Shown piece after piece: positions 13,883-59,977 of a stretch of DNA of 64,000 bases (positions within the stretch are counted from its first letter, which is position 1; the number at the start of each line of letters is the position of its first letter). The position numbers and the translations under genes are program-made. Below the pieces are notes generated by a model that did no database searches, was not told the origin of the DNA, and saw nothing but the letters and a program-made list of their open reading frames with translations. The DNA is taken from positions 56,847 through 120,846 of the forward strand of contig CAVTUM010000002.1 in assembly GCA_963737875.1 (NCBI GenBank), written 5' to 3'. The stretch is from an uncultured Alphaproteobacteria bacterium (lineage in GTDB: Bacteria > Pseudomonadota > Alphaproteobacteria > ATCC43930 > CGMCC-115725).

Positions 13883-14098
13883 CTAATCAATCAGTTCTGA
13901 CTTCCTATTCGGGGCAAGGACGAACTGTTTTTCAATCTTCCGCCGCTGCGCTTTAAGAGCATTATCTCTAATTCGTTCTTCATCAAATTGCTTGTTTCTT
14001 TGTGCGATGGCCTCTTCCCATCGACGCATCCCATCGTGCAATTCGCTACTGCCTCTTTGTTCTTGTGTATTTTGCCCAAGGAGGCGGGATGCAACCAT
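13883..14098 (-). CDS. Hypothetical basic coiled-coil protein in AT-rich islet
   Basis: 71 aa; RRWEEAIAQRNKQFDEERIRDNALKAQRRKIEKQ; low GC; may be the C-terminal part of the upstream ORF. Confidence 0.3.
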   Translation of the reverse strand: MVASRLLGQNTQEQRGSSELHDGMRRWEEAIAQRNKQFDEERIRDNALKAQRRKIEKQFVLAPNRKSELID

Positions 14099-14372: not shown

Positions 14373-14467
14373 CGCTCTTTAATGAGCAGTTCGCGCTCGG
14401 AATTATTGGCGACTAATTCCATCTCCTAAACCTCCTTTGGTCTATCTCCTAAGGACCTAGTTGCGCA

Positions 14468-45165: not shown

Positions 45166-45436
45166 TGCTCCCCCAAGCGTCAAAATGTCTGTGGTAATGG
45201 CCGCGCGAAGAACACGCGTTCCTCTCACCCGATGATATTTGTCGTGGCGCGGCGATCAAGCGAGGTTTGGTCGTCTCGTGGTGTTTTCGTCTCATCGTGG
45301 CCAACGTGCAACATATTAAGCTATCTGAATCAGATTGCGGCCACGACCGGGCTGCATCAATGGACATCGGGTGCGCGGCAAGTTCCGTGATCATGCAGCG
45401 CGACCGGCGCCGCGGTAACCGCGACGCGGGTGCCGG

Positions 45437-46009
45437 CTAGAATTTGAAACCGATCCGGCCGCCGACGCTGGTGATGCCGGCATTGTGCCGGCCGAGGTCG
45501 GCGTTCGACATGTGGTCGAGCATCGCGGAGACGCTGATCACCGGGGTGATCTGGTAGCCAAGCTCCGCGCTTTCGCGGAACAGAATGCGGGACCCGAGCC
45601 GCTTGCGACCGGGGGGAGCCGTGTCGATGTAGCCGTCCTGGATGGCGCCGCCGAAACTTCCGCTGATGAAGATGCCGTCATTCGGGTTGACAACCCCCTG
45701 AACCAGCGTCGCGCTCCAGGTCAGCCCGAAATAACCGTTGCTGGTCATGCCATTGGTGTTGATGTCGCCACCGACATGCAGCCGCGGCGAGCCGATGATC
45801 TTGAGAATGTCGGGCGATGTGAACAGCACTTCGAGGTTGACGTTCGGGCCGGTCTCGACGTGATGCGTCAGAAACCCGACATCGTGTGCCAGTCCCCCCA
45901 GCTTCACTTCATCGATCACCCTGTCGTCGGCAACCGCCGGCAATGGCGAGATGGCACTGAGCACTGCGCAAGGCACGACAAAGCAAAGAACCCGCAGCGC
46001 AGGAGACAA
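45437..46009 (-). CDS. PagL-like outer-membrane lipid A deacylase / acyloxyacyl hydrolase family protein
   Basis: 190 aa with signal peptide; LDHMSNADLG…GRIGFKF matches PagL HxS catalytic dyad context and C-terminal Phe. Confidence 0.6.
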   Translation of the reverse strand: MSPALRVLCFVVPCAVLSAISPLPAVADDRVIDEVKLGGLAHDVGFLTHHVETGPNVNLEVLFTSPDILKIIGSPRLHVGGDINTNGMTSNGYFGLTWSATLVQGVVNPNDGIFISGSFGGAIQDGYIDTAPPGRKRLGSRILFRESAELGYQITPVISVSAMLDHMSNADLGRHNAGITSVGGRIGFKF

Positions 46010-46119: not shown

Positions 46120-46740
46120 TCAGCCGAACGGGTTGAGCGCCTTCAGGCGGGCCGACCAGCCATGCCGGCCAAGCTCGCGCCGCACCACCGCCATATCCGT
46201 CACCCAGTTCAGCTGCAGCACGCGACGCAAGCCGCGGTGCGGGTAATGGCCGTGAAACGACGCCTCACTGCGGCGGAATGCGACCATCGTGCCAGCCACC
46301 GGCGGCACCTCCACGGCATAGTCATCAAGGTCCCTGGCGCTGCGCAGAACCCGCAGCCGCCCCCCCGCCGCATCCCACCCGTCATTGAGGTAGAGCAGCA
46401 CAGTAATCAGCTTGGTCGACGAATCGGTATGGATGCGGCCGTCCTTGCCGTCGCTCTGGCCGCGCACCGTGATCATCGTCGGACGCCCGTCGAGGTCGAT
46501 CGTGAACTTGCCCTCGATCGCCCGGCGCAGAGCGTCACCTTCGAGTTCCTCGGCCAGTGCTGTAAAGGAGGCGCCGCCCGATAGTGAGGTCAACGGGTAG
46601 CTGCCGTGGCCGGCCACCGCCGGATAATCAGCGAACAAGGCGGGCAGGTGCTCGCGGTTGAGGAACCCCTCGACGATCACATAATCATAGGGGTCGCTGC
46701 GCAGCGGCGCGGCCCGCAACCGGTCCAAGTCGAGAATCAT
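46120..46740 (-). CDS. 2OG-Fe(II) oxygenase family protein
   Basis: MILDLDRLRAAPLRSDPYDYVIVEGFLNREHLP…GRIHTDSSTKLITVLLYLNDGWDAAGGRLRVL…HGHYP (HxD…H). Confidence 0.6.
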   Translation of the reverse strand: MILDLDRLRAAPLRSDPYDYVIVEGFLNREHLPALFADYPAVAGHGSYPLTSLSGGASFTALAEELEGDALRRAIEGKFTIDLDGRPTMITVRGQSDGKDGRIHTDSSTKLITVLLYLNDGWDAAGGRLRVLRSARDLDDYAVEVPPVAGTMVAFRRSEASFHGHYPHRGLRRVLQLNWVTDMAVVRRELGRHGWSARLKALNPFG

Positions 46741-46915
46741 GCGCGGCCCTGCCCGTGATGGCGCCCAAAGCGCGCCATCGTATCGCGGTGAGGGGTGTCG
46801 GCAACACCCGGTTTGGATCGCGCGGCGACACGCCATTTCCGCTCGCCCGCGGCTCGCCGCTGAGCTAGAGGTAGCGCGCCGCGCGAACGGCATTCCGCAA
46901 CCGTCGGATAGGGTC

Positions 46916-48660
46916 ATGGAACAGCGCTGGGGTGTGCCCCTGATCGCCTGGCCGTCGCGCTTGCGCCCCAATTACTGGGACCTGATCGCGCTGCCGATGG
47001 TGATCGGCCTGATTGCCCTGGTTGCCTGGGGCGGCATGGCGATGGGCGCGCATTACCAGATCGGCGACGCCCTGCCGATCTCGCTCGACCCCCGGCGCCT
47101 GCCGGAATACGCGCTGCGCACGGTATTGCGCATGGCGCTGGCGCTGGTCGCCTCGCTGTGGTTCAGCCTCGCCTATGCCGCCGTGGCGGCGAAAAGCCGG
47201 ACGGCCGAGAAGATCATGATCCCGGTGCTCGACATCCTGCAATCGGTGCCGATCCTCGGGTTTCTGTCGATCACGGTGACCGGCTTTATCGCCCTGTTTC
47301 CCGGCCGGCTGCTCGGCGTCGAATGCGCCGCGATCTTCGCGATCTTTACCTCGCAGGCGTGGAACATGACGTTCAGCCTGTACCAGTCGCTGCGCACCGT
47401 GCCGGGCGAACTGATCGAGGCGGCGCGCATGTACCACCTGACGTCCTGGCAGCGCTTTTGGCGGCTCGAAGTGCCGCACGCGGTGCCGGGGCTGGTGTGG
47501 AACATGATGATGTCGGTCTCGGGCGGCTGGTTCTTCGTCGTCGCCTCCGAGGCGATCACGGTATCCGGCCAGTCGATCATGCTGCCCGGCATCGGCTCCT
47601 ATATCGCGACGGCCATCGCCGAGCGCGACCTCGCCGCGATCTTCTATGCCGTGCTGGTGATGCTGGTCGTCATCCTGCTGTACGACCAGCTGCTATTCCG
47701 TCCGCTCCTCGCTTGGTCCCGCAAGTTCCGCGGCGATGATGCCAGTGACGAGGAGGACAACCCGCGCCCGTGGTTTCTGATCGTGCTGCAGCGCGCCCGC
47801 GTTTTCGACCTGCTGCAGGTGGCGGTGCGGCGGGTGAACCTGGTGTTCGACTACGGCTTGTCGGCGGTCGGGCGCAGCCTGCCCCGGCGCCGCCGGGCGC
47901 CGCGGCCGCACGCGACATGGGTCGAGCGCGGCTTCGACGTCGTCCTGCTTGCTGCTGGCCGGCGCATCCGTCGTATGGATCGTGCGCTTTGTGCTGGAGA
48001 CGGTCTCGCTCGGCGAAATCGGCTGGACCTTCGTGCTCGGCGCGATCACCGCGGTGCGGGTGCTGGTGCTGATCGGGTCGGCGTCGGTGATCTGGGTGCC
48101 GATCGGGGTGTGGATCGGGCTGCGCCCGCGCATCGCCGACAAGGCGCAGCCGATCGTGCAGTTCCTCGCCGCCTTTCCGGCCAATTTGTTCTTCCCGGTC
48201 GCGGTCGTGCTGATCCTGCAAATTCAGCCTCAACCCGCAGATCTGGCTGAGCCCGCTGATGATCCTCGGGACGCAGTGGTACATCCTGTTCAACGTGATC
48301 GGCGGCGCCACGGCATTGCCGACGGAATTGCGGCTGGCGGCGAGCAATCTCGGCGTGCGGCGCTGGCTGTGGTGGCGTCGGGTGATCCTGCCGGCGATCT
48401 TCCCGGCCTATGTGACCGGCGCGGTGACCGCGGCCGGCGGCTCGTGGAACGCCAGCATCGTCTCCGAGGTCGTGCAGTGGGGCGACACGACGCTCAGCGC
48501 CACCGGCATCGGCGCTTACATCACCAAATACACCGCCGAGGGCGACGCCGCCCGCATCACCCTCGGAATCGGCGTGCTGTGTCTTTATGTTCTAGCCTTC
48601 AACCGCCTGCTGTGGCGCCGCCTCTACGAACTCGCCGCCGAACGGCTGCGCCTCGATTGA
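46916..48660 (+). CDS. Fused tandem ABC transporter permease (two NitT/TauT-type BPD_transp_1 domains), 2 frameshifts (~47950, ~48225)
   Basis: First domain …EAARMYHLTSWQRFWRLEVPHAVPGLVW…; second domain …RLAASNLGVRRWLWWRRVILPAIFPAYVTGAV… (EAA-like loops) in three ORF pieces. Confidence 0.75.
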
Positions 48661-48892: not shown

Positions 48893-50164
48893 GTGGAACC
48901 CGGAGGGTGCTTAGTGGCTGATATAGCGCTGCTTTTTCAGGCTGACGATCCGCGGCTTCGCACGACGGTCGGGGTACGTGACGGTGAAACGATCGTGTTG
49001 AGCAACTCCGCGGCCGGGATCGGGCTCTATGGTCCATACGTCGATCTGCCGAGCGGCCGGTATCGCGCAAGGATCCGCTTCGCGGAAGCCCACGAAACGG
49101 CCGGCTCCGTCACCATGGATGTCTGTGAAGAGGCCGCGACAAAGATCATCAGTGCGGCCGAATTTGATCTCTCCAATCTGGCGCCGGGGAAGCGCGAAAT
49201 AGAACTGGCCTTTTCGCTCGATCGAGCCGCATCGCTGTGTGAAGTCCGGCTGTTCTGCGCCGCGGCGGTATCCGCGACGATCACCCGTATCGAGATTTTG
49301 TTTCTTGATTTCGAGGCGTCACTGGTTGGCTGGCTGGACCGCCTGGAGCGTCTTACGCACGGCGGACGAGCCACTTACGTCGGGAACAATCGCATCCTGG
49401 CAAGACTGGTCGTCGGAGACACGATCTTCGCCTTCCTGATGCCTGCCAATGATCTGCTAATCGTGCCGGCGACGATTGCACGCGGCGAGTATGAACCGGC
49501 GTTGACGCGGTATTTTACGCGGACCGTTGCGGGCACGGACCATTGCCTGGATGTCGGCGCAAACTACGGCTATTATACTTGTCTGATGGCGAGCCTCACG
49601 CCGGGTGGCAAGGTTCTCGGGATCGAGCCTGATGAGGCGATTTTCGCGTTGATGCGCGATAATCTTTACATAAATACCTTAGAACCGAGTGCGAAGGCGC
49701 TGCATGCCGCCGTGGCCGATCGCTCCGGACGATTGACGTTGCATCGCCGGTCGACCCGTTCCGGCAACACCAGCATCATCAAGTACACAAGTGACTATAC
49801 CGCCAGCGCCGGGGAACAGGCGGCGATGCCATTTGAGGTGGAATGCTTTGCGATCGATGATCTGTTGCCGCGTTTTGATGGCCGGATTGACATCGCCAAG
49901 ATCGATGTCGAAGGTGCGGAACCGCTGGTATTCCGCGGCGCTCGGCGAACAATTCACGAAAACCCGCAGATCAGGATAGTCATGGAATGGTCGCCTGGTC
50001 AGATTCGTGCAGCGGGTTTCGACGTAGGCGAATTTGTCACCGAGCTTACGAGTTTGCGGCTCGATGCCGCCATCATCGGTTCCGCCGGACCGGAGCCGGT
50101 TGCGTTAGCCGATCTCAGCCACACTTCTTACCATTCAGGCATTCTGCTCACGCCGAGATCATAA
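48893..50164 (+). CDS. FkbM-family methyltransferase with ~180-aa N-terminal domain of unknown function
   Basis: C-terminal 240 aa: DVGANYGYYTCLMASLTPGGKVLGIEPDEAIFALMRDNLYIN…IAKIDVEGAEPLVFRGAR (Methyltransf_21/FkbM). Start codon uncertain (possible GTG at 48914). Confidence 0.8.
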   Translation: MEPGGCLVADIALLFQADDPRLRTTVGVRDGETIVLSNSAAGIGLYGPYVDLPSGRYRARIRFAEAHETAGSVTMDVCEEAATKIISAAEFDLSNLAPGKREIELAFSLDRAASLCEVRLFCAAAVSATITRIEILFLDFEASLVGWLDRLERLTHGGRATYVGNNRILARLVVGDTIFAFLMPANDLLIVPATIARGEYEPALTRYFTRTVAGTDHCLDVGANYGYYTCLMASLTPGGKVLGIEPDEAIFALMRDNLYINTLEPSAKALHAAVADRSGRLTLHRRSTRSGNTSIIKYTSDYTASAGEQAAMPFEVECFAIDDLLPRFDGRIDIAKIDVEGAEPLVFRGARRTIHENPQIRIVMEWSPGQIRAAGFDVGEFVTELTSLRLDAAIIGSAGPEPVALADLSHTSYHSGILLTPRS

Positions 50165-50217
50165 TCTTCGCTAACACGTCACGGGCGTCCCCTATAATCA
50201 TCTGTTGCGTATCGCAG

Positions 50218-53200
50218 TTACGCCGACGTCCACTCAGCGGCACGTTCAAACACCACAGTGCTTGCCGGATCCTCATATTCCAAGACATAGGACTGCAAGC
50301 AGATCTGAAGGCCGGCATCAACCGAGAGCGTGAACTCGACACCGTCTTCAGCTCGTTCAATGACGAACTCCGTGTCCAGCAAGCAGCCGCTGGACGGGTT
50401 CACCCCCCAACTTAGCGTAACTTCATGTAGTACTTTCTCACCCTGGTTACTTGTCACGCGCAGATGCGCGCGTCCAGCTTCAATCCCCTCGCTGGTTCCG
50501 AAGCCGCGCAGACGGTGCGGACCGGGGGTGATACCTATATAGGGCCCGAAGGTCAGCACGCCCTCACGCCCGGTGGATTGGATATATCCATTGGCGTCAA
50601 AGCAACCGACCCGCGTCCTGAGCATTCCATCCTGCGAGCGGAACTGCCGCCGCTGTCGGGGAAAGTCAATATCAGGCCCGGTTTTCTGGCCGCGATGCAC
50701 GTCAAACTGGTGATGCAGGTGGAGCGAATAGAGCATATCGAAAAGCCGCCTCGACGATCGCTCGTAGGACGCTGCCGAAGAGATACCAGTCGCGCGGTCG
50801 ACCGCCGCTGTGACACGCGGGGCATGAGTTTCAAGTTCGACGACGAGAGCGGCGATCCCCACCGCCAAATCGCGGGCGCTACAGCCCGGCAGACGCAGAA
50901 CGGCGTCTTCGAGTTCGTCAAACACGGGGAGTGGCGTCACCGCTACCGGAACGCCTGAAACCAGGCAGAGGCGCGCCGCGCCGCTCGCGGAATTGCCGGT
51001 GCTGGGCTGGTAGGGCAACACAATCAGGTCGGCCTCGCGCAAATTGGCGAGGCTCTCATCATCCGTGAGGAAGTCGTTGATCAACGTCACCCGGTCCTGC
51101 ACACCCAGGGAGACGGCGAGTTCCCTGGCTCTCTGGATTAGATCACTGGACACAGGCTCGGGGTATTCCGCATTGACCAATAGGAGATGACCATCGAAAC
51201 CAGCTTCGGACATCAGAGCAAAGGCTTCGATCAGCTCAATCAGGCCTTTGTGTGGAAGAAAAAAGCCGTAACTTGCGATGACTCGCCGCGCGCCGAAGCG
51301 GCGGCGATCTCGGCGGGATGCGGCCAAGTCCGACCTATGGCTTGGATAAGGATGCGGGAACAACGTGACGTTTTCGACGACACCCATATCCTTCAAGCGG
51401 TTCATGTCCGCGATTGAATGCACCAGCACTCTTGAACACCGCGCCAGGAGGGGAGCGATGATTGCCAGTCGCTTAGTCTCGTCCGGATCGTTTTCGTGCG
51501 TTGCGTGGGTTACAAAAATGACGATACGGCCCTGTTTGATCAATTCTTCGATAAAGGTTCGTAGTTCGTGGAAAATAAAGAACGCGTAGTTGAATTGGAT
51601 AACGACAACATCACACGCTGCGGTCGAAATATCGGACAGAAGTCGGTTGAGGCTGCCGTCTGAGCGTGTCCAGTTTCGGGTTACGTTAGGCTCGTCATAC
51701 ATTTCCCGTTCGTCACTAAATGGAGCGAAGATGCGAACATCGGTGCGATTTTCTAAAAGATATTTCGAGTAGGAGGCAACGCCGCAACGAATGTTCCATG
51801 TCGTCACCCAGGCAACTTTCATGTCTGGGCATTGCCAGTCGGCAAAGCTGATGAGGTCCGCGACGTATTGTTGCAGCCGCCAGGCGACATGATCCCACGA
51901 GAAGGACGCTCGAAGGGTATCGATGGCTGCCGTGGTTCGCCGCTGGATCTCCCTTCGCGGCGCGCTGCGGACCTGTCGCATCACGGCAGCCAAATGATCG
52001 ACGCTGGGCTCAGCCCAGACTGATCCTGGCAGGTTGAAATGGCTTCTGGCGCGCGCGAATTTGAAGTCGACGAGCCAGGCCGTCTCGTCACTGCAGAAGT
52101 CAAGATTGCCGCTCCAACCCGTGGCAATTACGGGCAGCCCGTGCACCATCGCTTCCGCCGCAGGCAGGCCGAATCCTTCTGCCCTGCTTGGAGCGACAAG
52201 GGCATGGCACTGGAGGTAGAGCGCATTGATTTCAGCGTCGGACAAATCATCATCAATCAAGACGACATCCGGGTAATCGATATCCTCTGCCTGGAGACGG
52301 GCCAGATCTTCGGCCACGGTGTTGTGCGGATTGGGGGCGGTTTTTATGATGAGCGATACGTCTTCCTGGCGGCGAAATGCCTTGCCATAAGCCGTTAACA
52401 GGCAGTCGACCCCCTTGCGCGGCAGGCACGACGAGATGTGCAGGAAACGATATGCCTTAGCCTGGATGCGGAAATTTGAATTTGGCCGGACCCGATCCCA
52501 GTGATCAATTCCATTGCCTGTCACCGACGTAGGCAGTCGAATCCCATGGTCGATCATCACCTTCTGAACGTGTCGTGACAGACACGTGAGGCCGTTCAAG
52601 CCCGTATTGAAATCGTCCAGCCACTGTTGCGGGAAACCGGCTTCCTCCCAGGCGTAATGATGGAACAGATTAATCGCTCCATTCATCCGTGTGACCCTTG
52701 GCGGATAAACAAGGCGGCTGACGACGGTGAATTCGGCGTCGGCGTCGGCGTCGCGTCCGCGGCTGTGCAAGCGCGCGATGTCGGGAGTTCGGCTTAAGAA
52801 CTCGGGATCAGGGTCGAAGTCGCCTGGTCCTTCCGTCGAAAACAACGATGTATCGACCCCCTGACGGTTTAGGGCCCGAGCGGTTTCCCGATTGACCAGC
52901 GCGAGGCTGTAGCTGGAGTTGAATGGCCCCTCCACACGCCATGTCGGTCGAACAAGCGCCGTAGACGTGGCGTGGGCCGTCGCAGTATCGAGATTGGTCT
53001 GGAGCAGCATACCAGTCGCTGTTCTGCCAGCCTCGTCGACGTCATATTGATCGAGAACCGCTGAGACCGAGCCGACGGCACGAATATACGCGAAATGGGG
53101 CAGGCTCGCGGCGATCAGAGGATGACGCGCCGCCCGCTGTGACAATCGCTGCTCCAGGTTGTCGATTAACCGACTCGCCGTTCGATCCCAGGAAAACTCC

Positions 53201-54345
53201 CGCGCCCGGGCCAGGCCAAACGCAACGATTTCGGCCCGATAGTCAGGTTGCTCCAGCACGAAGAGTATCTTATCGCACAGCTTGACAGCATTATCAGGGT
53301 CGAAGAGCAGGTCCGATCGGCCGACGACCTCCGGCAGACTTGTCCGATCCGATGACAATACCACTGCACCGGACGCCATCGCCTCCAGCACCGGCAGCCC
53401 AAATCCTTCGCTGAACGAAGGAAATATGAATATCACACAATTTCTATACAGAGCGCGCAGCTGAGGTTCTGAAAGGAAGTCTGTAAAGACAAACTTGTTC
53501 TTATGGTCGATCCCTAAATCATCCGCAAGGCGTTGCATTCGCTCGTGATCTGTCAGATTTATTTTTCCGACAAATACGATCTTTAACTTCGTTTTGTGTG
53601 TTTCCGGCAACAGCGAAAATGCACGGACGATGATTTCTGGGTTTTTTCTAGGTTCAAGCGATCCAACGTATAGTAAATATCCTTCGTGTATCCCCATGCG
53701 TAAGAGTAATTCATCATCATTTTGGTTGTGATCTTCTTTTTCTAAAGTGTATTCCGATGCGGCCGAAATATTACAAACATTATGTGCGGAAAACTCTCTG
53801 ACAATGCATTTTTCTGTGTATTCGGAATTAGAAAAGATAAGATCGCAATCGAGCAATTGGCGAAGTTTTTCTAAATACCATGAGCTGGCGACATCATTGC
53901 CAATATAGAGATGACGATCGTAGAAGGGGATCAGGTCATGGGCAATTACGCAATTTTCGTAAACGGAATTGCGGAACGATGACGATACGATGTCATCGTC
54001 GAACCCTTCGATGATGGACGGATTGAGCACGAAATCGGGCCGCAGCAGCGCAAGGCTATACCCCCTGATATGTTCCGAGACCTTTCTTTTCCAGGTGTTG
54101 GCGAGATTGGAGAAATTGATCTTATCAAAAACAGAGAAAACAAAAAAACGATTTGCCGGAAGCAGATCCAAAAAGTAGGCCCGGATCTCGTCCACCTCTG
54201 CCTTTGACTGGTTTCTTACGGCAATCCAGATTTCGTGATCCCCTCGATTGCGCAGCACTGCACGGGTCAATGAACTTGCATATCGGCCTATCCCTCTAAA
54301 TTTGCTTAGTCCTTGGATGGCTTGTAGATCAATGAGGAGCCGCAT
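50218..54345 (-). CDS. Multidomain glycosyltransferase: three GT4 (GT-B, EX7E) modules plus C-terminal ~170-aa non-catalytic domain
   Basis: 1375 aa intact; three repeats of GT4 C-terminal motif (…FIFPSFSEGFGLPVLEAMASG…; …LVAPSRAEGFGLPAAEAMVHGLPVI…; …LIVLPYQPSTGNSASGAARLCLVSGVPV…). Start codon overlaps stop of upstream gene by 17 nt. Confidence 0.85.
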   Translation of the reverse strand: MRLLIDLQAIQGLSKFRGIGRYASSLTRAVLRNRGDHEIWIAVRNQSKAEVDEIRAYFLDLLPANRFFVFSVFDKINFSNLANTWKRKVSEHIRGYSLALLRPDFVLNPSIIEGFDDDIVSSSFRNSVYENCVIAHDLIPFYDRHLYIGNDVASSWYLEKLRQLLDCDLIFSNSEYTEKCIVREFSAHNVCNISAASEYTLEKEDHNQNDDELLLRMGIHEGYLLYVGSLEPRKNPEIIVRAFSLLPETHKTKLKIVFVGKINLTDHERMQRLADDLGIDHKNKFVFTDFLSEPQLRALYRNCVIFIFPSFSEGFGLPVLEAMASGAVVLSSDRTSLPEVVGRSDLLFDPDNAVKLCDKILFVLEQPDYRAEIVAFGLARAREFSWDRTASRLIDNLEQRLSQRAARHPLIAASLPHFAYIRAVGSVSAVLDQYDVDEAGRTATGMLLQTNLDTATAHATSTALVRPTWRVEGPFNSSYSLALVNRETARALNRQGVDTSLFSTEGPGDFDPDPEFLSRTPDIARLHSRGRDADADAEFTVVSRLVYPPRVTRMNGAINLFHHYAWEEAGFPQQWLDDFNTGLNGLTCLSRHVQKVMIDHGIRLPTSVTGNGIDHWDRVRPNSNFRIQAKAYRFLHISSCLPRKGVDCLLTAYGKAFRRQEDVSLIIKTAPNPHNTVAEDLARLQAEDIDYPDVVLIDDDLSDAEINALYLQCHALVAPSRAEGFGLPAAEAMVHGLPVIATGWSGNLDFCSDETAWLVDFKFARARSHFNLPGSVWAEPSVDHLAAVMRQVRSAPRREIQRRTTAAIDTLRASFSWDHVAWRLQQYVADLISFADWQCPDMKVAWVTTWNIRCGVASYSKYLLENRTDVRIFAPFSDEREMYDEPNVTRNWTRSDGSLNRLLSDISTAACDVVVIQFNYAFFIFHELRTFIEELIKQGRIVIFVTHATHENDPDETKRLAIIAPLLARCSRVLVHSIADMNRLKDMGVVENVTLFPHPYPSHRSDLAASRRDRRRFGARRVIASYGFFLPHKGLIELIEAFALMSEAGFDGHLLLVNAEYPEPVSSDLIQRARELAVSLGVQDRVTLINDFLTDDESLANLREADLIVLPYQPSTGNSASGAARLCLVSGVPVAVTPLPVFDELEDAVLRLPGCSARDLAVGIAALVVELETHAPRVTAAVDRATGISSAASYERSSRRLFDMLYSLHLHHQFDVHRGQKTGPDIDFPRQRRQFRSQDGMLRTRVGCFDANGYIQSTGREGVLTFGPYIGITPGPHRLRGFGTSEGIEAGRAHLRVTSNQGEKVLHEVTLSWGVNPSSGCLLDTEFVIERAEDGVEFTLSVDAGLQICLQSYVLEYEDPASTVVFERAAEWTSA

Positions 54346-56719
54346 CCTTAAATTCTTTCGTGCTGGATGGTGGTCTCTCGATGCGTGCCCATCGAACCGG
54401 GACAGCGAGAGTCATATCGCGCAAAATCAGGTTTCTCCGCACCAGCGGATCGTCTTCGGCCAATGCGTGGCCCGGAAAGACAAGCTGCCCCAGGAGGGAA
54501 TGTCCGCGGGGCTTGACAGCTCCTTTTGTCATTGGGGCGGCGGGGCTCTCCAATCGGGTGTCGGTCGGACTGTCGTGGGGCGAACAATCGGGGGGCGAAC
54601 TGTCAGCGGAGAGCCCCTCCTTATCGCGAATTACCTCCATCACATAAGCGAGATGGTGAGCAGCATCGGGATGGTCCGGCGATAATATCAAGCCCCGGCG
54701 GTACGCGAGCGCTGCCTTCGCCAGCGCTCCGCACTCTTTGTATGCATGGCCATATTGTACCCAAAGACGCGGCTGATGGTTGGGCTTGACGGTCAGAAGG
54801 GCGCCGTAAAGCTCAACAGCTTCCACCCAATCGCGTCGTTTGGCGGCCGTCTGGGCCTGCCTCAACATCCGCCTCCAATAGATCATCTGGAATGGCGGGA
54901 GCCTTAGGAGTTGCGGGACCTTCACATCCGCAGGCTTCCAGGCGCATGCTTCTTCCCAGGCCGCGGCCTCTAACAAGGCCTGGTCCCGCTCTGTCCTGAT
55001 TGCCGTCTCTCGCTGCACGCTCGCCCGGCGCTCGTCTTCCACGCGGGCTAATTCCTCTCCCGACCGTGCCAATGCGGCGGCCAAGGCTTCGTTCCGCCGG
55101 GCCGCCTGCCGCACCTCCTCGTCGAGCGCCGCTTCAGCCTCGCGTGTGGCCTGACATTCCGCGTCCGACCGAACCAAGGCGACGGCCAGAGCTTCATTCC
55201 GCTCGGCCGCCTTTTGCAGTTGCGTCGTCAGCATGGCCTCGGCCTCGCGCACGGCCTGACATTCCGCGTCCAACCGAACCAAGGCGACGGCCAGAGCTTC
55301 ATTCCGCCCGGCCGCCTTTTGCAGTTGCGTCGTCAGCACGGCCTCGGCCTCGCGCACGGCCTGACATTCCGCGTCCAACCGGGCCAGTGCGGCGGCCAGA
55401 GCTTCATTCCACTCGGCCGCCTCCTGAAGCTGCGCTGTCAGCGCGACCTCAGCCTCGCGCGCGGCCTGACATTCCGCGTCCGACCGGGCCAATGCGGCGG
55501 CCAGCGCTTCATTCCGCCCGGCCGTCTCCTGAAACTGCGCTGTCAGCGCGGCCTCGGCCTCGCGCACGGCCTGACATTCCGCGTCCGACCGGACCAACGC
55601 GACGGCCAGAGCTTCATTCCGCCCGGCCGTCTCCTGAAGCTGCGTTGTCACCGCGGCCTCGGCCTCGCGCGCGGCCTGACATTCCGCGTCCGACCCGGCC
55701 AACGCGGCGGCCAGAGCTACATTCCGCCCGGCCGCCTCCTGAAGCTGCGTTGTCACCGCGGCCTCGGCCTCGCGCGCGGCCTGACATTCCGCGTCCGACC
55801 GGGCCAATGCGGCGGCCAGAGCTTCATTCCGCCCGGCCGTCTCCCGAAGCTGCGTTGTCAGCGCGGCCTCGCCCTGTACGGCTGCCGCGCGTGCTCCGTC
55901 GGATTGCGCCAACGCGTCTTCAAGGGGCCGCAGCCGCGCCTGCAGCGTTGGAACCGCAAAATTGTCGAAAACACAGGGCGGCGCGGCAAAGATGTCGCGC
56001 CGCCAGGCTTCCTCGCCACTGACATAGAACCGGTTCAAGCCATCGAAAAGGACAAAGATGTAATTCTTGGCGAGCAGCTGCGGTTCCCAGCTCTGGTGAT
56101 TGGCAATCTGCGTATTCGGCTCGGTCGCTTCCACGACGATGATGCGGGGGCGATGTACGGTGAAGCTGGCAGGATTAAGGATATCGGCTTCCATTCCCTC
56201 GGCATCGATCTTCAAGAAGTCGACCGTGTTGTTCCCGACAAGGCCAAACAGTTGATCGAGCGTCACCCCGGGAACTGGGATGATCCTCCGGGGGATCGAA
56301 GGTTCACCGCTGATGCCACCTGTTACCCCGGAAGACAGGCCGGTGCCCTCGATAACCGTAAACAGGCAGGTCTCCCCGCTCGCTCCTACCACGCACTGCA
56401 AATTGGTATCCCGGGTCCGGGCCCGTTCGAGTTCGGTGAAATACTGAGGGTTGGGTTCAACATTGATGCCATGCCAACCGGTGTCGTAGAACCACGCGGT
56501 CACGGAATCGTGTATCGGATGCCAAGCCCCAATATCGATGTAAAACCCCTGCTCGATTTCCTGCAAGGCGCGGCGTAGGATGACATCTTCAAAGTTCTGG
56601 GCATAGCTCACCATGCCCGTCAGATAGCCGCTGGCATCCGCTCGTACGCGCGGAGAGAGGTGAAAGTTATTTGTTTGTCGCTGAAGGCAGCCGACATCCA
56701 CCTCTATATCATCACTCAC
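54329..56719 (-). CDS. FkbM-family methyltransferase fused to 8x35-aa coiled-coil repeat array and TPR-like region (candidate glycan chain terminator / molecular ruler)
   Basis: 796 aa; N-terminal FkbM domain (…FYIDIGAWHPIHDSV…FLKIDAEGMEADIL…), then AECQAAREAEAAVTTQLQEAAGRNEALAAALARSD x8, then TPR-like helices, Ser/Pro-rich tail. Confidence 0.8.
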   Translation of the reverse strand: MSDDIEVDVGCLQRQTNNFHLSPRVRADASGYLTGMVSYAQNFEDVILRRALQEIEQGFYIDIGAWHPIHDSVTAWFYDTGWHGINVEPNPQYFTELERARTRDTNLQCVVGASGETCLFTVIEGTGLSSGVTGGISGEPSIPRRIIPVPGVTLDQLFGLVGNNTVDFLKIDAEGMEADILNPASFTVHRPRIIVVEATEPNTQIANHQSWEPQLLAKNYIFVLFDGLNRFYVSGEEAWRRDIFAAPPCVFDNFAVPTLQARLRPLEDALAQSDGARAAAVQGEAALTTQLRETAGRNEALAAALARSDAECQAAREAEAAVTTQLQEAAGRNVALAAALAGSDAECQAAREAEAAVTTQLQETAGRNEALAVALVRSDAECQAVREAEAALTAQFQETAGRNEALAAALARSDAECQAAREAEVALTAQLQEAAEWNEALAAALARLDAECQAVREAEAVLTTQLQKAAGRNEALAVALVRLDAECQAVREAEAMLTTQLQKAAERNEALAVALVRSDAECQATREAEAALDEEVRQAARRNEALAAALARSGEELARVEDERRASVQRETAIRTERDQALLEAAAWEEACAWKPADVKVPQLLRLPPFQMIYWRRMLRQAQTAAKRRDWVEAVELYGALLTVKPNHQPRLWVQYGHAYKECGALAKAALAYRRGLILSPDHPDAAHHLAYVMEVIRDKEGLSADSSPPDCSPHDSPTDTRLESPAAPMTKGAVKPRGHSLLGQLVFPGHALAEDDPLVRRNLILRDMTLAVPVRWARIERPPSSTKEFKDAAPH
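55040..55900. repeat. Coding tandem repeat, ~8 copies of a 105-bp unit (within the methyltransferase-coiled-coil gene)
   Basis: Near-identical units GGCCTGACATTCCGCGTCCGACCGGGCCAATGCGGCGGCCAGAGCTTCATTCCGCCCGGCCGTCTCCTGAAGCTGCGTTGTCAGCGCGGCCTCGGCCTCGCGC…; unit starts seen at ~55148, 55252, 55357, 55462, 55568 etc. Confidence 0.8.
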
Positions 56720-57292: not shown

Positions 57293-59153
57293 TTATCGTG
57301 CGTCAGCATGGTCCGCGAAGTGTTCAACGGACCGGGAGCCCAGAACCACTCGCTCCGGAGGAAGAATCACGGTTGCGGTAGTGCCAGCGCCGAGTTTGCT
57401 GCTAAGCGCAAGCCGACCGCCGTGCAGTTCCACAATTTTCTTGGCTAGCGGCAGCCCCAACCCCGTACCTTGATGATGTCGATTCAACGAGGAATTGACC
57501 TGCTCAAACGGCTTTAGCACGCGACTGAGATCATGTAAGGCAATACCCATTCCCGTATCAGAAACGGTCAGCGCCAAACCAAATAATGGATCGAACCGGC
57601 TTGAGACCGTGATCCTTCCCCCGGCCGGAGTGAACTTGACGGAGTTGACGATCAGGTTGATCAGTACCTGTTTGATCTTGCGTTCATCGCCGCGCAGCAA
57701 CATTGGATCGTCACCTAGGGAAACGTCCTGAAAGAGCCCTGCCTCACGAATAGGCCCGGCGGTCAGCTCAGCAACTGACTGCATGACTTTGCGTAGATCA
57801 AACACGCTCTCGTTAAGCTCAATCTGGCCGGCAGCAGCCTTCGAGAAATCGAGAATATCGTTGATAATCCCCAAAAGAAGCATGCCACTGCCATGAATGT
57901 CACCGATAAATCCCTGGTATTCCCGGTTTCCAACCGGCCCCAGCTCTTCACGCAGAATCATCTCAGAGAAGCCGATAATTGCATTCAGTGGCGTGCGCAG
58001 TTCGTGGCTCATTGTCGCCAAAAAATCCGATTTGGCCTGGTTGGCCACCTCGGCCTCATCTTTGGCGAGGCGTAACGCCTCATAGGCTTCCTCGCGGTCC
58101 CGTAGTGAGTCTCTGACTTGAACAAGAGCGACCTGCTCACGGCGGGCTCGCCGGAGCGCGATCAGGCATAGCAGCAGAAGCCCAAACGCGGCCGCCGCGC
58201 CGATTACAATATAACCCCTTATCGTGGTCAACCATTCCAGCAGTACCGATGCTTCGGTTCGGCTTACGGTAACATAGACCGGGTAATCGGCGACCCGTCG
58301 ATAGGCGATAATCTGCCCGCTGCGATCCAACAGCGAGCCTGTAACGATCAAGCCGCCCTGCGATCCCCCTGTCGTAATTCCTTCAGCCAGCGGACTGGAT
58401 CGCTGCAAGATTGGCGCGTCCGCAGTATCATCGTCGGGATAACGCGCAAGTCTGGTGCCGTCCTCCCTGAAAATTCCGGCCGTATAATTTGCGGGACCGC
58501 CGAGAAGAGAATTGTAGAAAGAGGCTAAATACTTTCCGGAGACCGCGACGATGGTAATTCCACGAAACTGGCCCTCTGGGCCCTCACGCCGGCGCGTCAC
58601 CGTGAAATAGGGGCGAAAACGATCTTGATCGAGGCTGCGCGCGCGCAATGCCCAAACAAAGGTTTGCAAATTGGTGTTCTGCAACGCCCGAAAATCGGCT
58701 CGGTCCGAGTGATCGAGATTGTGGTCGACCGGGTAAACTTTGGCGCTGACGAGTTCTCGTCCATTGGCATCCAGAACCCAGGCCGCCGCAACCTGCGGCA
58801 GACTCTTTAATCTGCTGAGCGAGCTGCTCATGCAGCGTCTGTTCCTGGTTGTGAACTTCCTGATCACTTAAGCGGGACAGCAGATCGTTAATGCGCGCGG
58901 CAACGAGCTGGTGCGTATCCAGCACCTTGATCGTATTTTCAGCGGCGACAGCAACCGTTTCGACAAGTGAGTCTTTCGCCGCAACAAGATGATTTTGATA
59001 AGATAAATAGCCGCCAGCAGCCGCAAAACACAGCGGCGCCACGATTATGCTAACGAGGAGAAGCCGGAGCATCCGAATTGCACCAGAAGGTGCCAATTGC
59101 TTAAGCATCGCCGCCGCAGGACTGGTTTCGGTTAGATGATCTCGCACATTCAA
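57293..59153 (-). CDS. Sensor histidine kinase (two TM helices, periplasmic sensor domain, HisKA, HATPase_c); one +1 frameshift near 58815
   Basis: H-box SDFLATMSHELRTPLNAI, N/G boxes (…LINLIVNSVKFTP…DTGMGI…GTGLGLPLAKKIVELHGG); N-terminal TM + sensor part is in ORF 58584..59153. Confidence 0.8.
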
Positions 59154-59287
59154 GCCTTTTGCGAGTCACCATTTCGGTTGGAACATTTAGGGAACTACTA
59201 CCTCTTTGGAAACGATCGGCAAACTTCGCGGCAACCTATATGATTGGCGCGATTAATGGACATACCTTCCTGGCGGGCGGATCGGCA

Positions 59288-59977
59288 ATGTTTGAAAGGC
59301 GGCTGATAGGGACGGTTGGCCTAACCACGCTGCTCTTAACAAGCTGCGGTGGAGGGGGCAACCACCTGGCCAATACGACACGCTCCGAACTTCTCGCCCT
59401 GCATCAAACCGGGCGCCCCGTGCTCGATTGCCGGGAGGCTTGTCTCTCGGAGTGGCGCAGTGTTCAGCCGGAGGCGATGAAACTCGACGCAAATGGGCAA
59501 TGGAGCGACCTCGCCGTCCTGGTGATGCGAACCGGCTACCAGGATGATCTCTCGCTCTATTACCTTGGCAGGGCAGCGGAGGGCATGAAATTTTTTGTCG
59601 CGGCCGGCAGTTACTATCGGCAAAGCATGCAGCTTTCGGGCACATCAATATCCTGTGAAAACCTCAGCCGGCTGTGTGGCGGCGTGAGTCTGCCGGCGGC
59701 CGCCGAACAGCACCTGGTCGCTACTGACAGCGTGCTTGACGCCGCCAAGCCGCGACGTCCTCGCCCCAGCACCGCACGCATCATTCCGCCAACCTTGCCG
59801 GAGCCAGATCAGGTCGGTGCGCCTGTCGTGCCAGCCGCACATGAGTCAACGTCGCCATCGGCCGTGAGCCCCGCCGCCGGGCAAGTGGAAACACCTCCTT
59901 CACCGGCCCAGGGTCAACCCGAGCCGAGTTCCCGGCCGGACACCGATTACATCGAGCCTCCGCCGGCAACGCACTGA
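59288..59977 (+). CDS. Hypothetical lipoprotein with Pro-rich C-terminal tail
   Basis: Lipobox in MFERRLIGTVGLTTLLLTSCGGG; C-terminus PEPDQVGAPVVPAAHESTSPSAVSPAAGQVETPPSPAQGQPEPS. Confidence 0.5.
   Translation: MFERRLIGTVGLTTLLLTSCGGGGNHLANTTRSELLALHQTGRPVLDCREACLSEWRSVQPEAMKLDANGQWSDLAVLVMRTGYQDDLSLYYLGRAAEGMKFFVAAGSYYRQSMQLSGTSISCENLSRLCGGVSLPAAAEQHLVATDSVLDAAKPRRPRPSTARIIPPTLPEPDQVGAPVVPAAHESTSPSAVSPAAGQVETPPSPAQGQPEPSSRPDTDYIEPPPATH

What the first reader, a model, noticed from the sequence alone, without database searches (positions are those of the whole stretch)
48893..56719. Candidate polysaccharide chain-length ruler system: FkbM methyltransferase with coiled-coil repeats, overlapping a triple-GT4 polymerase
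Three adjacent genes form a lower-GC island. The first is a 796-aa protein with an N-terminal FkbM-type sugar O-methyltransferase domain, a long coiled-coil built from eight near-identical 35-aa repeats, and a TPR-like C-terminal region. Immediately downstream of it and overlapping it by 17 nt is a 1375-aa protein with three GT4 modules. A second FkbM methyltransferase lies convergent to these.

This arrangement parallels ABC-transporter-dependent O-polysaccharide systems: E. coli O9a WbdD (methyltransferase-kinase with a coiled-coil ruler) acting on the multi-GT polymerase WbdA, and Klebsiella/Raoultella WbbB. In those systems a terminal-modifying enzyme held on a coiled-coil stalk caps the glycan and sets its modal length. 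Here the terminator would be a methyltransferase alone, with the ruler built from exact tandem repeats.

No Wzm/Wzt genes are in the window, so the export route is unknown. Assignment to LPS O-antigen, capsule or another glycan is open.
Basis: partly seen in the sequence, partly recalled or inferred. Interest (0 to 1): 0.75.

Follow-up and report, generated by a model that had tools for sequence, protein, structure and literature searches.

The report
Methyltransferase on a repeat-built stalk, with mannan polymerase
Two overlapping genes encode a sugar-chain polymerase closely matching E. coli O8 WbdA and a methyltransferase held on an unusually long coiled-coil stalk made of eight tandem repeats; this is most likely a new variant of the known "molecular ruler" system that caps surface polysaccharides and sets their length.

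Summary
The 796-aa protein has an FkbM methyltransferase domain, about 340 residues of unbroken heptad-periodic helix that includes 8 x 35-aa tandem repeats, and a TPR. Its gene overlaps the 1375-aa glycosyltransferase gene by 17 nt.

The glycosyltransferase is 40% identical over 1225 aa to E. coli O8 WbdA, the three-module mannan polymerase. The methyltransferase is not homologous to WbdD. It belongs to a widespread, uncharacterised FkbM + coiled-coil family. In 34 of 80 genomes a family member is fused or adjacent to such a polymerase, often directly after wzm-wzt. Many members carry, after the coil, a short motif (SWRxTxPLR) that I also found in WbdD(O8); here a TPR takes its place.

Tandem repeats in the coil recur across the family, and every unit length is 7n or 7n+11 residues. 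That argues the coil's length is what evolves.

Both the polymerase C-terminus and the second methyltransferase carry a new domain with the fold of carbohydrate-binding modules (no Pfam model, about 3,400 relatives).

No exporter, sugar-precursor or primer genes are in the window. The ruler function is inferred, not shown.

Verdict: a new variant of a known kind, of moderate interest.

The parts
54329..56719 (-). MT1: 796-aa FkbM methyltransferase + coiled coil + TPR + tail (candidate chain terminator / ruler)
   Evidence: ORF; Pfam and NCBIfam FkbM and TPR; the family alignment shows an N-terminal extension conserved up to the GTG start
55955..56614 (-). FkbM methyltransferase domain of MT1 (aa ~36-255)
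   Evidence: PF05050 81.8 bits and TIGR01444 63.6 bits; family-invariant residues, including the DxGA and KxDxEGxE stretches, are present
54935..55954 (-). Coiled-coil stalk of MT1 (aa ~256-595; ~340 residues, about 50 nm if one continuous coil)
   Evidence: 3.5-residue hydrophobic periodicity: power 69, against 1-4 at periods 3.6-4.0. One unbroken register, and no Pro between aa 266 and 594. AF2 single-sequence model gives helices 258-361, 370-470 and 490-591 at low confidence. Longest heptad stretch among 86 family members
55061..55900 (-). Eight tandem 105-nt / 35-aa (five-heptad) repeats inside the stalk
   Evidence: TRF; register and pairwise identities; the a-position residues cycle C/E/L/N/L and are nearly invariant between copies
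54620..54907 (-). TPR region of MT1 (aa ~605-700), candidate polymerase-docking module
   Evidence: TPR_2 28.4 bits when scanned as a segment; PDB hits to TPR proteins. Homologous to a free-standing 208-aa protein directly upstream of the closest polymerase homologue: 31% identity, E 2e-23
54332..54487 (-). C-terminal tail of MT1 (aa ~745-796) with conserved RRxLILRDxxLAxP stretch
   Evidence: Conserved with the L006 208-aa protein; no transmembrane segment and no strong amphipathic helix
54329..54345 (-). 17-nt overlap between MT1 stop and polymerase start (suggests translational coupling)
   Evidence: Sequence read directly; identical in the independent contig L090
50218..54345 (-). GT3: 1375-aa WbdA(O8)-type three-module GT4 polymerase with an extra C-terminal domain
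   Evidence: 40% identity over 1225 aa to E. coli IAI1 (O8) WbdA, 863 bits; more than 100 homologues of ~1215 aa at 42-45% identity
53086..54345 (-). GT4 module 1 (aa 1-420), EX7E at E313-E321
   Evidence: Glycos_transf_1 108.6 bits; motif
51841..53028 (-). GT4 module 2 (aa 440-835), EX7E at E723-E731
   Evidence: GT4-conflict 59 bits and Glycos_transf_1 57 bits; motif
50701..51840 (-). GT4-like module 3 (aa 836-1215), diverged; Asn1118 (codon 50992-50994) replaces the conserved Glu/Asp
   Evidence: Sub-threshold Pfam hits only; E/D conserved in the 8 homologues examined and in WbdA(O8)
50266..50664 (-). CBM-like beta-jelly-roll domain at the polymerase C-terminus (aa ~1228-1360)
48893..50164 (+). 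MT2: 423-aa protein, CBM-like domain + FkbM methyltransferase, convergent to the polymerase
   Evidence: PF05050 71.4 bits and TIGR01444 97.9 bits
48920..49330 (+). CBM-like domain of MT2 (aa ~10-146), same family as the polymerase C-terminus
   Evidence: BLASTP E 2e-5; alignment A2; hmmsearch with the A2 profile, E 9.9e-40 (the sequence is part of the profile, so this is not independent)
57293..58867 (-). Sensor histidine kinase inside the same low-GC island, upstream on the same strand; link to the system unproven
   Evidence: HisKA, HATPase_c and dCache_1_like; one transmembrane segment

Best explanation
The overlapping gene pair encodes a polymerase-terminator complex of the kind that builds polymannose- or rhamnan-type glycans on a polyprenol carrier at the cytoplasmic face of the inner membrane.

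- GT3 is an orthologue of E. coli O8 WbdA and extends the chain.
- MT1 oligomerises through a parallel coiled coil of about 340 residues (about 50 nm).
- MT1's C-terminal TPR and tail dock on the polymerase. Its N-terminal FkbM domain sits at the far end of the stalk.
- That domain O-methylates the non-reducing terminal sugar only of chains long enough to reach it, which stops elongation. The stalk therefore sets the modal chain length.
- The stalk is built from eight 35-aa (five-heptad) DNA-level tandem repeats. Recombination could lengthen or shorten it in steps of about 5 nm without breaking the heptad register.
- The CBM-like domains on the polymerase and on MT2 hold the growing glycan. 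MT2 adds a second methyl group or an internal one.
- Export would use a transporter encoded elsewhere in the genome.

Shown: the domain architecture, the homology to WbdA, the heptad periodicity, the synteny in relatives and the CBM-like fold. Inferred: the methyl acceptor, termination, docking, the ruler function, the oligomeric state and export.
For: - GT3 is 40% identical to WbdA(O8) over all three modules.
- The O8 cluster order is wzm-wzt-wbdD-wbdA. MT1 relatives occupy the wbdD slot in L009, L005 and many others.
- Of 80 genome loci holding this FkbM subfamily: 34 are fused or adjacent to a multi-GT4 of at least 700 aa, 30 have wzm+wzt within the locus (up to 10 kb on each side), and 32 have gmd/rmd. 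Of the 30 with a transporter, 21 have a Wzt with a Wzt_C-like cap-binding extension (confirmed by Pfam only for L005 and L009).
- 58 of the 80 have at least 56 heptad-like residues directly after the methyltransferase domain.
- 32 of 86 family members carry SWRxTxPLR after the coil. The same motif follows the coil in authentic WbdD(O8).
- 30 independent-looking tandem repeats occur in family coils. Every unit length is 7n (22 cases) or 7n+11 (8 cases).
- The MT1 coil has one unbroken heptad register.
- The 17-nt overlap suggests coupled expression.
- A free-standing coil-TPR-tail protein sits directly upstream of the closest GT3 homologue.
- L091 conserves MT1(TPR) + GT3-CBM + CBM-methyltransferase.
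- The CBM-like fold is confidently modelled, and the domain recurs in canonical O-polysaccharide loci L030, L045, L005 and L009.
- Literature: a coiled coil on the terminator is the marker of this strategy and acts as a ruler in O9a and O12 (PMC11231755, PMC5082667). 3-O-methyl-Man/Rha caps are recognised by Wzt (PMC9445017).
Against: - No wzm/wzt, no manCB or gmd/rmd, no WbdB/WbdC-type adaptor transferases and no ligase in 64 kb.
- In 14 of the 34 polymerase pairs no transporter lies within the fetched locus. In L063 and L019 the cassette sits among unrelated housekeeping genes.
- MT1 has no membrane-association element like that of WbdD.
- Module 3 of the polymerase has lost a conserved acidic residue.
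- The AF2 model of MT1 is of low confidence, and it folds the helix into three segments rather than one rod.
- Oligomeric state and parallel orientation are untested.
- No FkbM-type terminator has been characterised in the literature I could search.
- P. aeruginosa CPA methyltransferases show that cluster methyltransferases need not regulate length (PMC3560663).
Confidence: 0.6

Rival explanations
1. This is a polymerase plus decorating methyltransferases, with no ruler. MT1 and MT2 O-methylate residues along the chain, or add a cap that does not control length. The coiled coil only oligomerises or scaffolds the enzymes.
For: - There are two methyltransferases in the cassette.
- P. aeruginosa CPA methyltransferases related to WbdD(O8) are required for synthesis but do not behave as length regulators (PMC3560663).
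- MT1 lacks the WbdD-type C-terminal region.
Against: - Repeat units in family coils are always heptad- or hendecad-compatible, and the repeats differ between lineages. That points to selection on length rather than on sequence.
- Coil length varies from about 50 to about 320 residues between the same two conserved modules.
- The position and polarity (catalytic domain distal, polymerase partner proximal) copy WbdD.
Confidence: 0.2
2. The cassette makes a cytoplasmic, non-exported polymethylated polysaccharide, in the manner of mycobacterial methylmannose polysaccharides (that comparison rests on my own knowledge). The three genes would then be self-sufficient, using housekeeping GDP-mannose.
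For: - No transporter, primer or ligase genes lie near the cassette, here or in L063 and L019.
- There are two methyltransferases plus a polymerase.
- All three proteins lack transmembrane segments.
Against: - GT3 is collinear with the undecaprenol-linked O8 polymerase WbdA.
- The same MT1, GT3 and CBM-like components occur inside canonical wzm-wzt clusters.
- A 50-nm spacer has no obvious role for a short cytoplasmic oligomer.
Confidence: 0.07
3. This is a protein glycosylation system. The TPR of MT1 binds a target protein (as in OGT or FlmG-type enzymes; my own knowledge) and the glycosyltransferases build a glycan on it.
For: - The best PDB sequence matches of the TPR include OGT.
- One fused relative lies next to a 2153-aa DUF4214/RTX/Big_12 secreted-type protein.
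Against: - There is no candidate target gene in the island.
- The TPR module co-occurs with the polymerase, not with a target.
- Most family members lack a TPR and sit in O-polysaccharide or capsule loci.
Confidence: 0.05
4. This is a horizontally acquired remnant that no longer makes a product: an orphan low-GC island without partner genes, with a damaged third GT module.
For: - Low-GC island.
- Asn replaces the conserved Glu/Asp in module 3.
- Partner genes are missing.
- Several other genes in the window look split.
Against: - All three ORFs are intact over 7.8 kb, including an 840-nt repeat array that stays in frame.
- Catalytic motifs of both FkbM domains and of GT modules 1-2 are intact.
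- The sequence is identical in an independent sample.
- Similar orphan cassettes are conserved in other Alphaproteobacteria.
Confidence: 0.08

Closest known systems
E. coli O8 / Klebsiella pneumoniae O5 WbdD-WbdA (methyl-capping terminator plus three-module mannosyltransferase)
   Same: - The polymerase is a true homologue: 40% identity over 1225 aa, all three modules collinear.
- The terminator gene lies directly upstream of the polymerase gene.
- The terminator is a methyltransferase only, with the catalytic domain N-terminal and a coiled coil after it (PMC11231755).
   Different: - The methyltransferase fold family differs: FkbM against class I SAM, with no detectable sequence similarity.
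- The coil is about 340 aa here and about 70 aa in WbdD(O8), and here it is built from tandem repeats.
- A TPR and tail replace the SWRITQPLR motif and basic C-terminal region.
- The polymerase has an extra CBM-like domain.
- No wzm-wzt-manCB-wbdBC genes are nearby.
E. coli O9a / K. pneumoniae O3 WbdD (methyltransferase-kinase, trimeric ~200 A coiled-coil ruler)
   Same: The proposed logic is the same: a distal capping enzyme, a proximal polymerase-recruitment site, and a coil length that sets the modal chain length (PMC5082667, PMC3482155).
   Different: - No kinase domain and no homology.
- The predicted stalk is about 2.5 times longer.
- Oligomeric state is unknown.
- No membrane-binding helix was found.
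WbbB of K. pneumoniae O12 / Raoultella terrigena, and ORF6 of K. pneumoniae O7 (terminator-coil-polymerase in one polypeptide; ORF6 also has a CBM)
   Same: - 10 of 80 relatives of MT1 are fused to their GT4 polymerase in this order.
- A CBM-like module in a termination system has one precedent, O7 ORF6 (PMC11231755).
   Different: - Here there are two polypeptides whose genes overlap.
- The terminator chemistry differs (Kdo transfer or methyl-phosphate in those systems, methyl here).
- The polymerase modules are GT4, not GT2 or GT1.
- The CBM-like domain is on the polymerase and on a second methyltransferase, not on the stalk protein.
K. pneumoniae O4 ORF7 (GT137 Kdo-transferase terminator with a TPR-like bundle and coiled coil)
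   Same: It combines a TPR-like helical module with a coiled coil in a chain terminator (PMC11231755).
   Different: The order is reversed: TPR-like before the coil there, after the coil here. The catalytic domain is unrelated.
Pseudomonas syringae TET operon (wzm-wzt-methyltransferase-bifunctional GT; sometimes fused)
   Same: It is a transport-elongation-termination module with an O-methyltransferase next to a WbdA-like GT, variable between strains and horizontally exchanged (PMC7820976).
   Different: That module includes the transporter. The paper reports no coiled-coil or repeat analysis, and I did not test whether its methyltransferase is FkbM-type.

Membership tests
FkbM-family methyltransferase (Pfam PF05050 / TIGR01444) | Match to the family model above the curated cut-off | tested here: met
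   MT1: 81.8 bits (cut-off 22.7) and 63.6 bits (cut-off 37.7). MT2: 71.4 and 97.9 bits
FkbM-family methyltransferase (Pfam PF05050 / TIGR01444) | Family-invariant residues present (the DxGA and KxDxEGxE stretches, which I take to be the SAM-binding and catalytic motifs) | tested here: met
   Invariant columns D62, G64, A65, K170, D172, E174 and E177 are present in MT1. MT2 has LDVGAN and KIDVEGAE
FkbM-family methyltransferase (Pfam PF05050 / TIGR01444) | SAM-dependent O-methylation of a sugar hydroxyl | not testable with these tools
   Needs an enzyme assay or NMR of the glycan
WbdA (E. coli O8 type) three-module GT4 polymerase | Collinear full-length homology to the characterised enzyme | tested here: met
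   40% identity, 57% positives over 1225 aa, 863 bits, against WP_001223552.1 of E. coli IAI1
WbdA (E. coli O8 type) three-module GT4 polymerase | Three catalytically competent GT4 modules, one per linkage | tested here: inconclusive
   Modules 1 and 2 are above the Pfam cut-offs with EX7E intact. Module 3 is sub-threshold, with Asn1118 in place of the conserved Glu/Asp
WbdA (E. coli O8 type) three-module GT4 polymerase | Located in a cluster with wzm, wzt, manC/manB and the adaptor transferases wbdB/wbdC | tested here: not met
   None of these is in the 64-kb window. They are present in E. coli IAI1
WbdD-type coiled-coil chain terminator | Catalytic domain homologous to WbdD (class I SAM methyltransferase, with or without a kinase) | tested here: not met
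   No WbdD chain among PDB hits at E up to 1. BLASTP against WbdD(O8) gives nothing better than E 11. No kinase domain
WbdD-type coiled-coil chain terminator | Extended coiled coil between the catalytic domain and the C-terminal region | tested here: met
   Heptad periodicity, a single register and no Pro over aa 256-595; helical in AF2 at low confidence. This is sequence-level evidence only; the oligomer is untested
WbdD-type coiled-coil chain terminator | C-terminal region with the SWRxTxPLR motif and a basic amphipathic segment. The motif was found here in WbdD(O8); the literature places membrane association and polymerase recruitment in this region | tested here: not met
   The motif is present in WbdD(O8) and in 32 of 86 FkbM + coiled-coil relatives, but absent in MT1, which has a TPR instead. 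No strong amphipathic helix
WbdD-type coiled-coil chain terminator | Gene immediately upstream of, and co-directional with, the polymerase gene | tested here: met
   17-nt overlap; the same order as wbdD-wbdA in E. coli IAI1
WbdD-type coiled-coil chain terminator | Coil length determines the modal chain length; the cap is required for Wzt-dependent export | not testable with these tools
   Needs genetics and LPS profiling. No wzt gene is available in the window
WbbB-type single-polypeptide terminator-ruler-polymerase | Terminator, coiled coil and polymerase modules in one protein | tested here: not met
   Two ORFs with overlapping stop and start. 10 of 80 relatives are fused
Carbohydrate-binding module (beta-jelly-roll, CBM6/35-like) | Beta-sandwich fold matching known CBMs | tested here: met
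Carbohydrate-binding module (beta-jelly-roll, CBM6/35-like) | Sequence membership in a described family, including Wzt_C | tested here: not met
   No Pfam hit. hhalign against Wzt_C domains gives probability below 5%. In 6 of 54 relatives it lies next to a separate Wzt_C domain
Carbohydrate-binding module (beta-jelly-roll, CBM6/35-like) | Binds a glycan | not testable with these tools
   Needs binding assays

The most novel reading that the evidence does not exclude
The stalk is a naturally tunable ruler. Unequal recombination among the 105-nt repeats (83-97% identical) adds or removes exactly five heptads (about 5 nm) at a time, giving heritable, quantised changes in surface-glycan length.

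The three genes would form a portable, transporter-less cassette: a WbdA-type polymerase, an FkbM stalk terminator that docks through a TPR rather than the WbdD-type C-terminus, and a CBM-guided second methyltransferase. The cassette would plug into a host's existing export pathway. The CBM-like domain would found a new family of cytoplasmic glycan-binding modules used by assembly enzymes.
Probability: 0.25. Interest if true: 0.7.

Novelty: new variant of a known kind. Interest (0 to 1): 0.5.

Why it matters
Chain length of O-antigens and capsules affects serum resistance, phage and tailocin sensitivity, and plant or animal immune recognition. The coiled-coil ruler is one of the few physical length-measuring devices known in biosynthesis.

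This locus, and the family around it, add four things:
1. The ruler principle has been combined with an unrelated methyltransferase fold (FkbM) across many phyla.
2. Rulers in this family repeatedly grow by tandem duplication in heptad- or hendecad-compatible units. That is a natural version of the insertion/deletion experiments done on WbdD.
3. The polymerase-docking end can be swapped: TPR here, the SWRxTxPLR region elsewhere.
4. An undescribed CBM-like domain is widely attached to cytoplasmic glycan-assembly enzymes.

All four points are directly testable. None overturns the current model.

Tried and rejected
- **Third homologue search.** A word-index search with the 160-aa C-terminal domain returned nothing, not even the parent protein. 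I replaced it with a full HMM search.
- **AF2 of MT1.** The single-sequence model was poor (pLDDT 47). I used it only for secondary structure.
- **PDB profile search.** A profile of the FkbM domain found no meaningful structure.
- **Provenance.** Exact-sequence look-ups of P0001, P0121 and a Suf protein were not on record. The genome scan's best hit was only 56% identical, a Stellaceae MAG. The organism is therefore unidentified and the rest of its genome could not be searched for wzm/wzt. My guess is an alphaproteobacterium, from the ~66% GC, a Porin_2-family porin and that best hit.
- **Repeat-number variants.** The metagenome scan found no close relative, best 57%. The only other copy is a short-read contig that breaks inside the array.
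- **'The new domain is Wzt_C'.** Rejected: hmmsearch and hhalign are negative, and the two domains are separate in the proteins that have both.
- **Anti-phage defence system** (suggested by the Pfam 'GT4-conflict' hits). Rejected: no PADLOC match, and the GT is a WbdA orthologue.
- **MT2-like neighbours in Acetobacteraceae loci.** They share only the FkbM domain, not the CBM-like domain, so they are weak evidence for a conserved three-part system. L091 is the better match.
- **Mobile-element boundaries.** No tRNA gene was found in the window.

Full report
**1. Observation**

The three ORFs exist as described.

MT1 (54329-56719, minus strand, 796 aa) has three parts:
- an FkbM methyltransferase domain: PF05050 at aa 62-221, 81.8 bits against a cut-off of 22.7; TIGR01444, 63.6 bits;
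- a tandem array: TRF reports a 105-nt unit x 7.8 copies at 55060-55875, 89% matches, no indels;
- a TPR at aa ~605-700.

At protein level there are eight 35-aa units (aa 274-553). The inner copies are 83-97% identical in DNA and the outer copies are more diverged.

The GT gene's ATG (54345) lies 17 nt upstream of the end of MT1's TGA (54329).

MT2 (48893-50164, plus strand) is a second FkbM protein, convergent to the GT gene.

The low-GC island is real, at 0.40-0.62 against ~0.66 in the flanks. It runs to ~59.8 kb and also contains a dCache-type histidine kinase and a putative lipoprotein. It lies between an ABC permease gene and the suf operon.

An independent short-read contig, L090, is 99.97% identical to window 49077-55197 and ends inside the repeat array. 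The overlap and the coding sequences are therefore confirmed independently. The repeat count is not.

**2. The stalk**

- Hydrophobicity over aa 256-595 has a sharp 3.5-residue periodicity: power 69, against 1-4 at periods 3.6-4.0.
- There is a single register throughout, and no proline between aa 266 and 594.
- Because 35 = 5 x 7, every repeat preserves the register. The a positions cycle C/E/L/N/L and are almost invariant between copies.
- A single-sequence AF2 model is poor (pLDDT 47) but predicts helices 258-361, 370-470 and 490-591, followed by TPR helices.
- If the helix is one continuous coil, about 340 residues span about 50 nm. The figure reported for WbdD(O9a) is about 20 nm (PMC5082667).

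**3. The polymerase**

GT3 has more than 100 homologues of ~1215 aa at 42-45% identity. Some are named mannosyltransferase or O-antigen alpha-1,2-mannosyltransferase by their sources.

I fetched the E. coli IAI1 (O8) cluster. Its order is manC-manB-wzm-wzt-wbdD-wbdA-wbdB-wbdC. GT3 is 40% identical to its 1213-aa WbdA over 1225 aligned positions, covering all three modules.

Modules 1 and 2 are clear GT4 with EX7E motifs. Module 3 is sub-threshold when scanned alone, and it carries Asn1118 where WbdA(O8) and the eight other homologues examined have Glu or Asp.

**4. MT1 is an analogue, not a homologue, of WbdD**

MT1 shows no similarity to WbdD in the PDB or to WbdD(O8). It belongs instead to a very widespread FkbM subfamily.

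A scan of one genome per species returned 80 loci from Proteobacteria, Acidobacteriota, Actinomycetota, Cyanobacteria, Chloroflexota and even archaea. I annotated them with my own phmmer queries:

| Feature in the 80 loci | Count |
|---|---|
| FkbM gene fused to a multi-GT4 of at least 700 aa | 10 |
| FkbM gene adjacent and co-directional to such a GT4 | 25 |
| Either of the two above (one locus has both) | 34 |
| wzm+wzt within the locus (up to 10 kb on each side) | 30 |
| gmd/rmd present | 32 |

The recurrent order is wzm-wzt-FkbM-GT(-gmd-rmd). Examples are Stenotrophomonas oahuensis L009 and Billgrantia kenyensis L005, where FkbM and the GT are fused directly after a Wzt that carries Wzt_C. 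Capsule-type contexts (KpsMT-like ABC transporter, Wza, KpsC/S) also occur, as in Burkholderia glumae L003 and L007.

With a home-made heptad score, calibrated on the globular methyltransferase domains (4.6% of their residues score above the threshold), 58 of the 80 have at least 56 heptad-like residues directly after the methyltransferase domain. The median is 104 and the maximum 250. The window protein has 316, the longest seen.

In 32 of 86 family members the coil ends in an SWRxTxPLR motif, at a distance that varies from 47 to 296 residues after the methyltransferase domain. The same motif (SRSWRITQPLRW) follows the coil in authentic WbdD(O8). Much of the family therefore looks like the back half of WbdD with a different methyltransferase in front. 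I take this as the strongest argument that the family does WbdD's job.

MT1 and its nearest relatives have a TPR where that motif would be.

**5. Length is what evolves**

Tandem repeats are common in the coils of this family. I found 30 distinct cases among 119 sequences. Their sequences are unrelated between lineages. Every unit length is either 7n (22 cases) or 7n+11 (8 cases: 18, 32, 39, 53 and 60 residues). These are exactly the increments that keep a heptad or hendecad coiled coil in register.

Some of the cases are related to each other, so the nominal p-value overstates independence. The pattern has no exceptions.

**6. Docking**

Next to the closest GT3 homologue (48% identity, L006) the upstream gene encodes a 208-aa protein. 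It consists only of a short coil, the TPR and the tail, and is 31% identical (E 2e-23) to MT1 aa ~585-796.

Three observations make the TPR and tail the best candidate for the polymerase-binding end:
- this free-standing module in L006;
- the 17-nt overlap between the two genes;
- the fusions in relatives.

This is inference. No membrane-binding element was found in MT1. None of the three proteins has a convincing transmembrane segment; only MT2 shows two marginal hydrophobic windows.

**7. A new CBM-like domain**

The last ~130 aa of GT3 and the first ~140 aa of MT2 are homologous. With a 10-sequence alignment, AF2 gives a confident all-beta sandwich (pLDDT 88.6).

- No Pfam model covers the domain.
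- An HMM search of 1.84 billion representatives finds 3440 proteins at E up to 1e-3 and 1145 at E up to 1e-10, often with several copies per protein.
- Among 54 sampled: 17 carry GT4, 5 carry GT32-type domains, 3 carry WavE domains, and 6 have a separate Wzt_C domain next to it.
- It is not itself Wzt_C.
- It also occurs in canonical O-polysaccharide loci: on the polymerase in Frateuria (L045) and Luteibacter (L030), and on ~730-aa unknown proteins in L005, L009 and L047.
- In metagenome locus L091 it heads what looks to me like a TylF-type methyltransferase (judged by eye, no search run), beside an MT1 (coil + TPR) and a GT3 with the domain. That is the closest overall synteny to the window.

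**8. What is missing**

Nothing in the 64 kb encodes Wzm/Wzt, GDP-sugar enzymes, WbdB/WbdC-type adaptors or a ligase. This is not unique to the window.
- 14 of the 34 polymerase pairs have no transporter within the fetched locus.
- In an Acetobacteraceae chromosome (L063) and a Rhodospirillales MAG (L019), the FkbM/FkbM-coil/GT cassette sits among unrelated housekeeping genes.

The export route and the class of glycan stay open. The absence of gmd/rmd favours a GDP-mannose-derived mannan, as in O8, but this is only a lean.

**9. Comparison and novelty**

The literature I could search already says:
- a coiled coil on the terminator is the characteristic marker of ABC-transporter-dependent assembly, and the strategy is widespread;
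- methyl-only capping exists (O8/O5);
- TPR-like and CBM modules have single precedents (O4 ORF7 and O7 ORF6) (PMC11231755).

3-O-methyl caps on Man/Rha polymers are read by Wzt (PMC9445017). No paper in the library links FkbM with coiled coils or chain termination.

The locus is thus a new variant of a known kind. It has a bona fide WbdA-type polymerase, a non-homologous FkbM terminator, an exceptionally long stalk built from repeats, a TPR docking end, CBM-like accessory domains, and an orphan, horizontally acquired setting.

**10. Rivals**

- Decoration without a ruler: 0.2.
- Remnant island: 0.08.
- Cytoplasmic polymethylated polysaccharide: 0.07.
- Protein glycosylation: 0.05.

A defence-system reading is excluded.

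**11. Scores**

- Best explanation: 0.6.
- Interest: 0.5. A specialist would not be surprised by the principle. The repeat-encoded ruler, the shared SWRxTxPLR motif, the TPR swap and the new CBM-like family are concrete, testable additions.

Noticed in passing
window 50992-50994 (GT3 codon 1118): Asn (AAT) replaces a Glu/Asp that is conserved in module 3 of E. coli O8 WbdA and in the eight other homologues examined. It is identical in the independent contig L090. The third module may be inactive or have altered specificity.
   Followed up: partly
L100 6456-7733 (E. coli IAI1 WbdD O8), and 32 of 86 FkbM + coiled-coil proteins in L002-L089: A conserved S-W-R-x-T-x-P-L-R motif follows the coiled coil, both in authentic WbdD(O8) and in many FkbM + coiled-coil proteins. 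Its distance from the catalytic domain varies (47-296 residues). It looks like a shared docking or membrane module exchanged between unrelated methyltransferases.
   Followed up: partly
L006 6509-9365: Next to the closest GT3 homologue lie a CMP-sugar synthetase-like gene (CTP_transf_3, which I read as KdsB-like) and a 700-aa protein with a weak Capsule_synth (KpsC/KpsS-like) hit, and no FkbM gene. This may be a Kdo-capped version of the same polymerase system, with the coil-TPR-tail protein standing alone.
   Followed up: partly
window 55061-55900 (each 35-aa repeat); L091 7770-10085: Every inner repeat carries one Cys at a coiled-coil a position (DAECQA). The 14-aa repeats of the L091 homologue also carry a Cys (e.g. 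SDCQRL, EVCREL), whereas P0011 and P0020 have Tyr in similar 14-aa repeats (ESEYQQ). A ladder of core cysteines could allow inter-chain disulfide or redox effects.
   Followed up: no
window 10358-11793; 46739-48660; 36063-36935; 38590-39006: Several genes look split or truncated: thiC in two ORFs, an ABC permease in two ORFs, and amidase and aldo-keto reductase fragments. These are either indel errors of a long-read assembly or pseudogenes. The point matters because the repeat count rests on this assembly.
   Followed up: no
window 57293-58867 (-) and 59159-59977 (+): The low-GC island also carries a dCache-type sensor histidine kinase with no response regulator next to it. It also carries a 272-aa ORF with an internal lipobox (LLLTSC) and a Pro-rich C-terminus, with no family match.
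   Followed up: partly
window 45437-46009 (-) and 43576-45228 (-): A PagL-type lipid A 3-O-deacylase homologue and a Porin_2/DcaP-type porin lie 3-5 kb from the island. An LPS-modifying gene is therefore nearby although O-antigen export genes are not.
   Followed up: no
L063 14661-15659 and L019 14811-15755: In both orphan cassettes from Acetobacteraceae and Rhodospirillales, a ~320-aa Ferritin_2-domain protein lies directly after the polymerase gene. No equivalent was seen in the window.
   Followed up: no
L002 / L033 14041-20502: An FkbM-GT4-GT4 fusion lies next to a 2153-aa DUF4214 / RTX-like / Big_12 protein. DUF4214 also replaces or follows the coil in several FkbM relatives (e.g. Burkholderia glumae L003) and stands alone before the GT in L007.
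   Followed up: no
window 13001-15000: A second lower-GC stretch (0.574) lies around an HpcH/HpaI aldolase gene and a CoA-transferase gene, with about 0.9 kb between them (13533-14467) in which my ORF filter listed no gene.
   Followed up: no
window 16166-18136 (-): A 656-aa protein combines an adenylate/guanylate cyclase catalytic domain with a long TPR array. It is unrelated to the finding.
   Followed up: no
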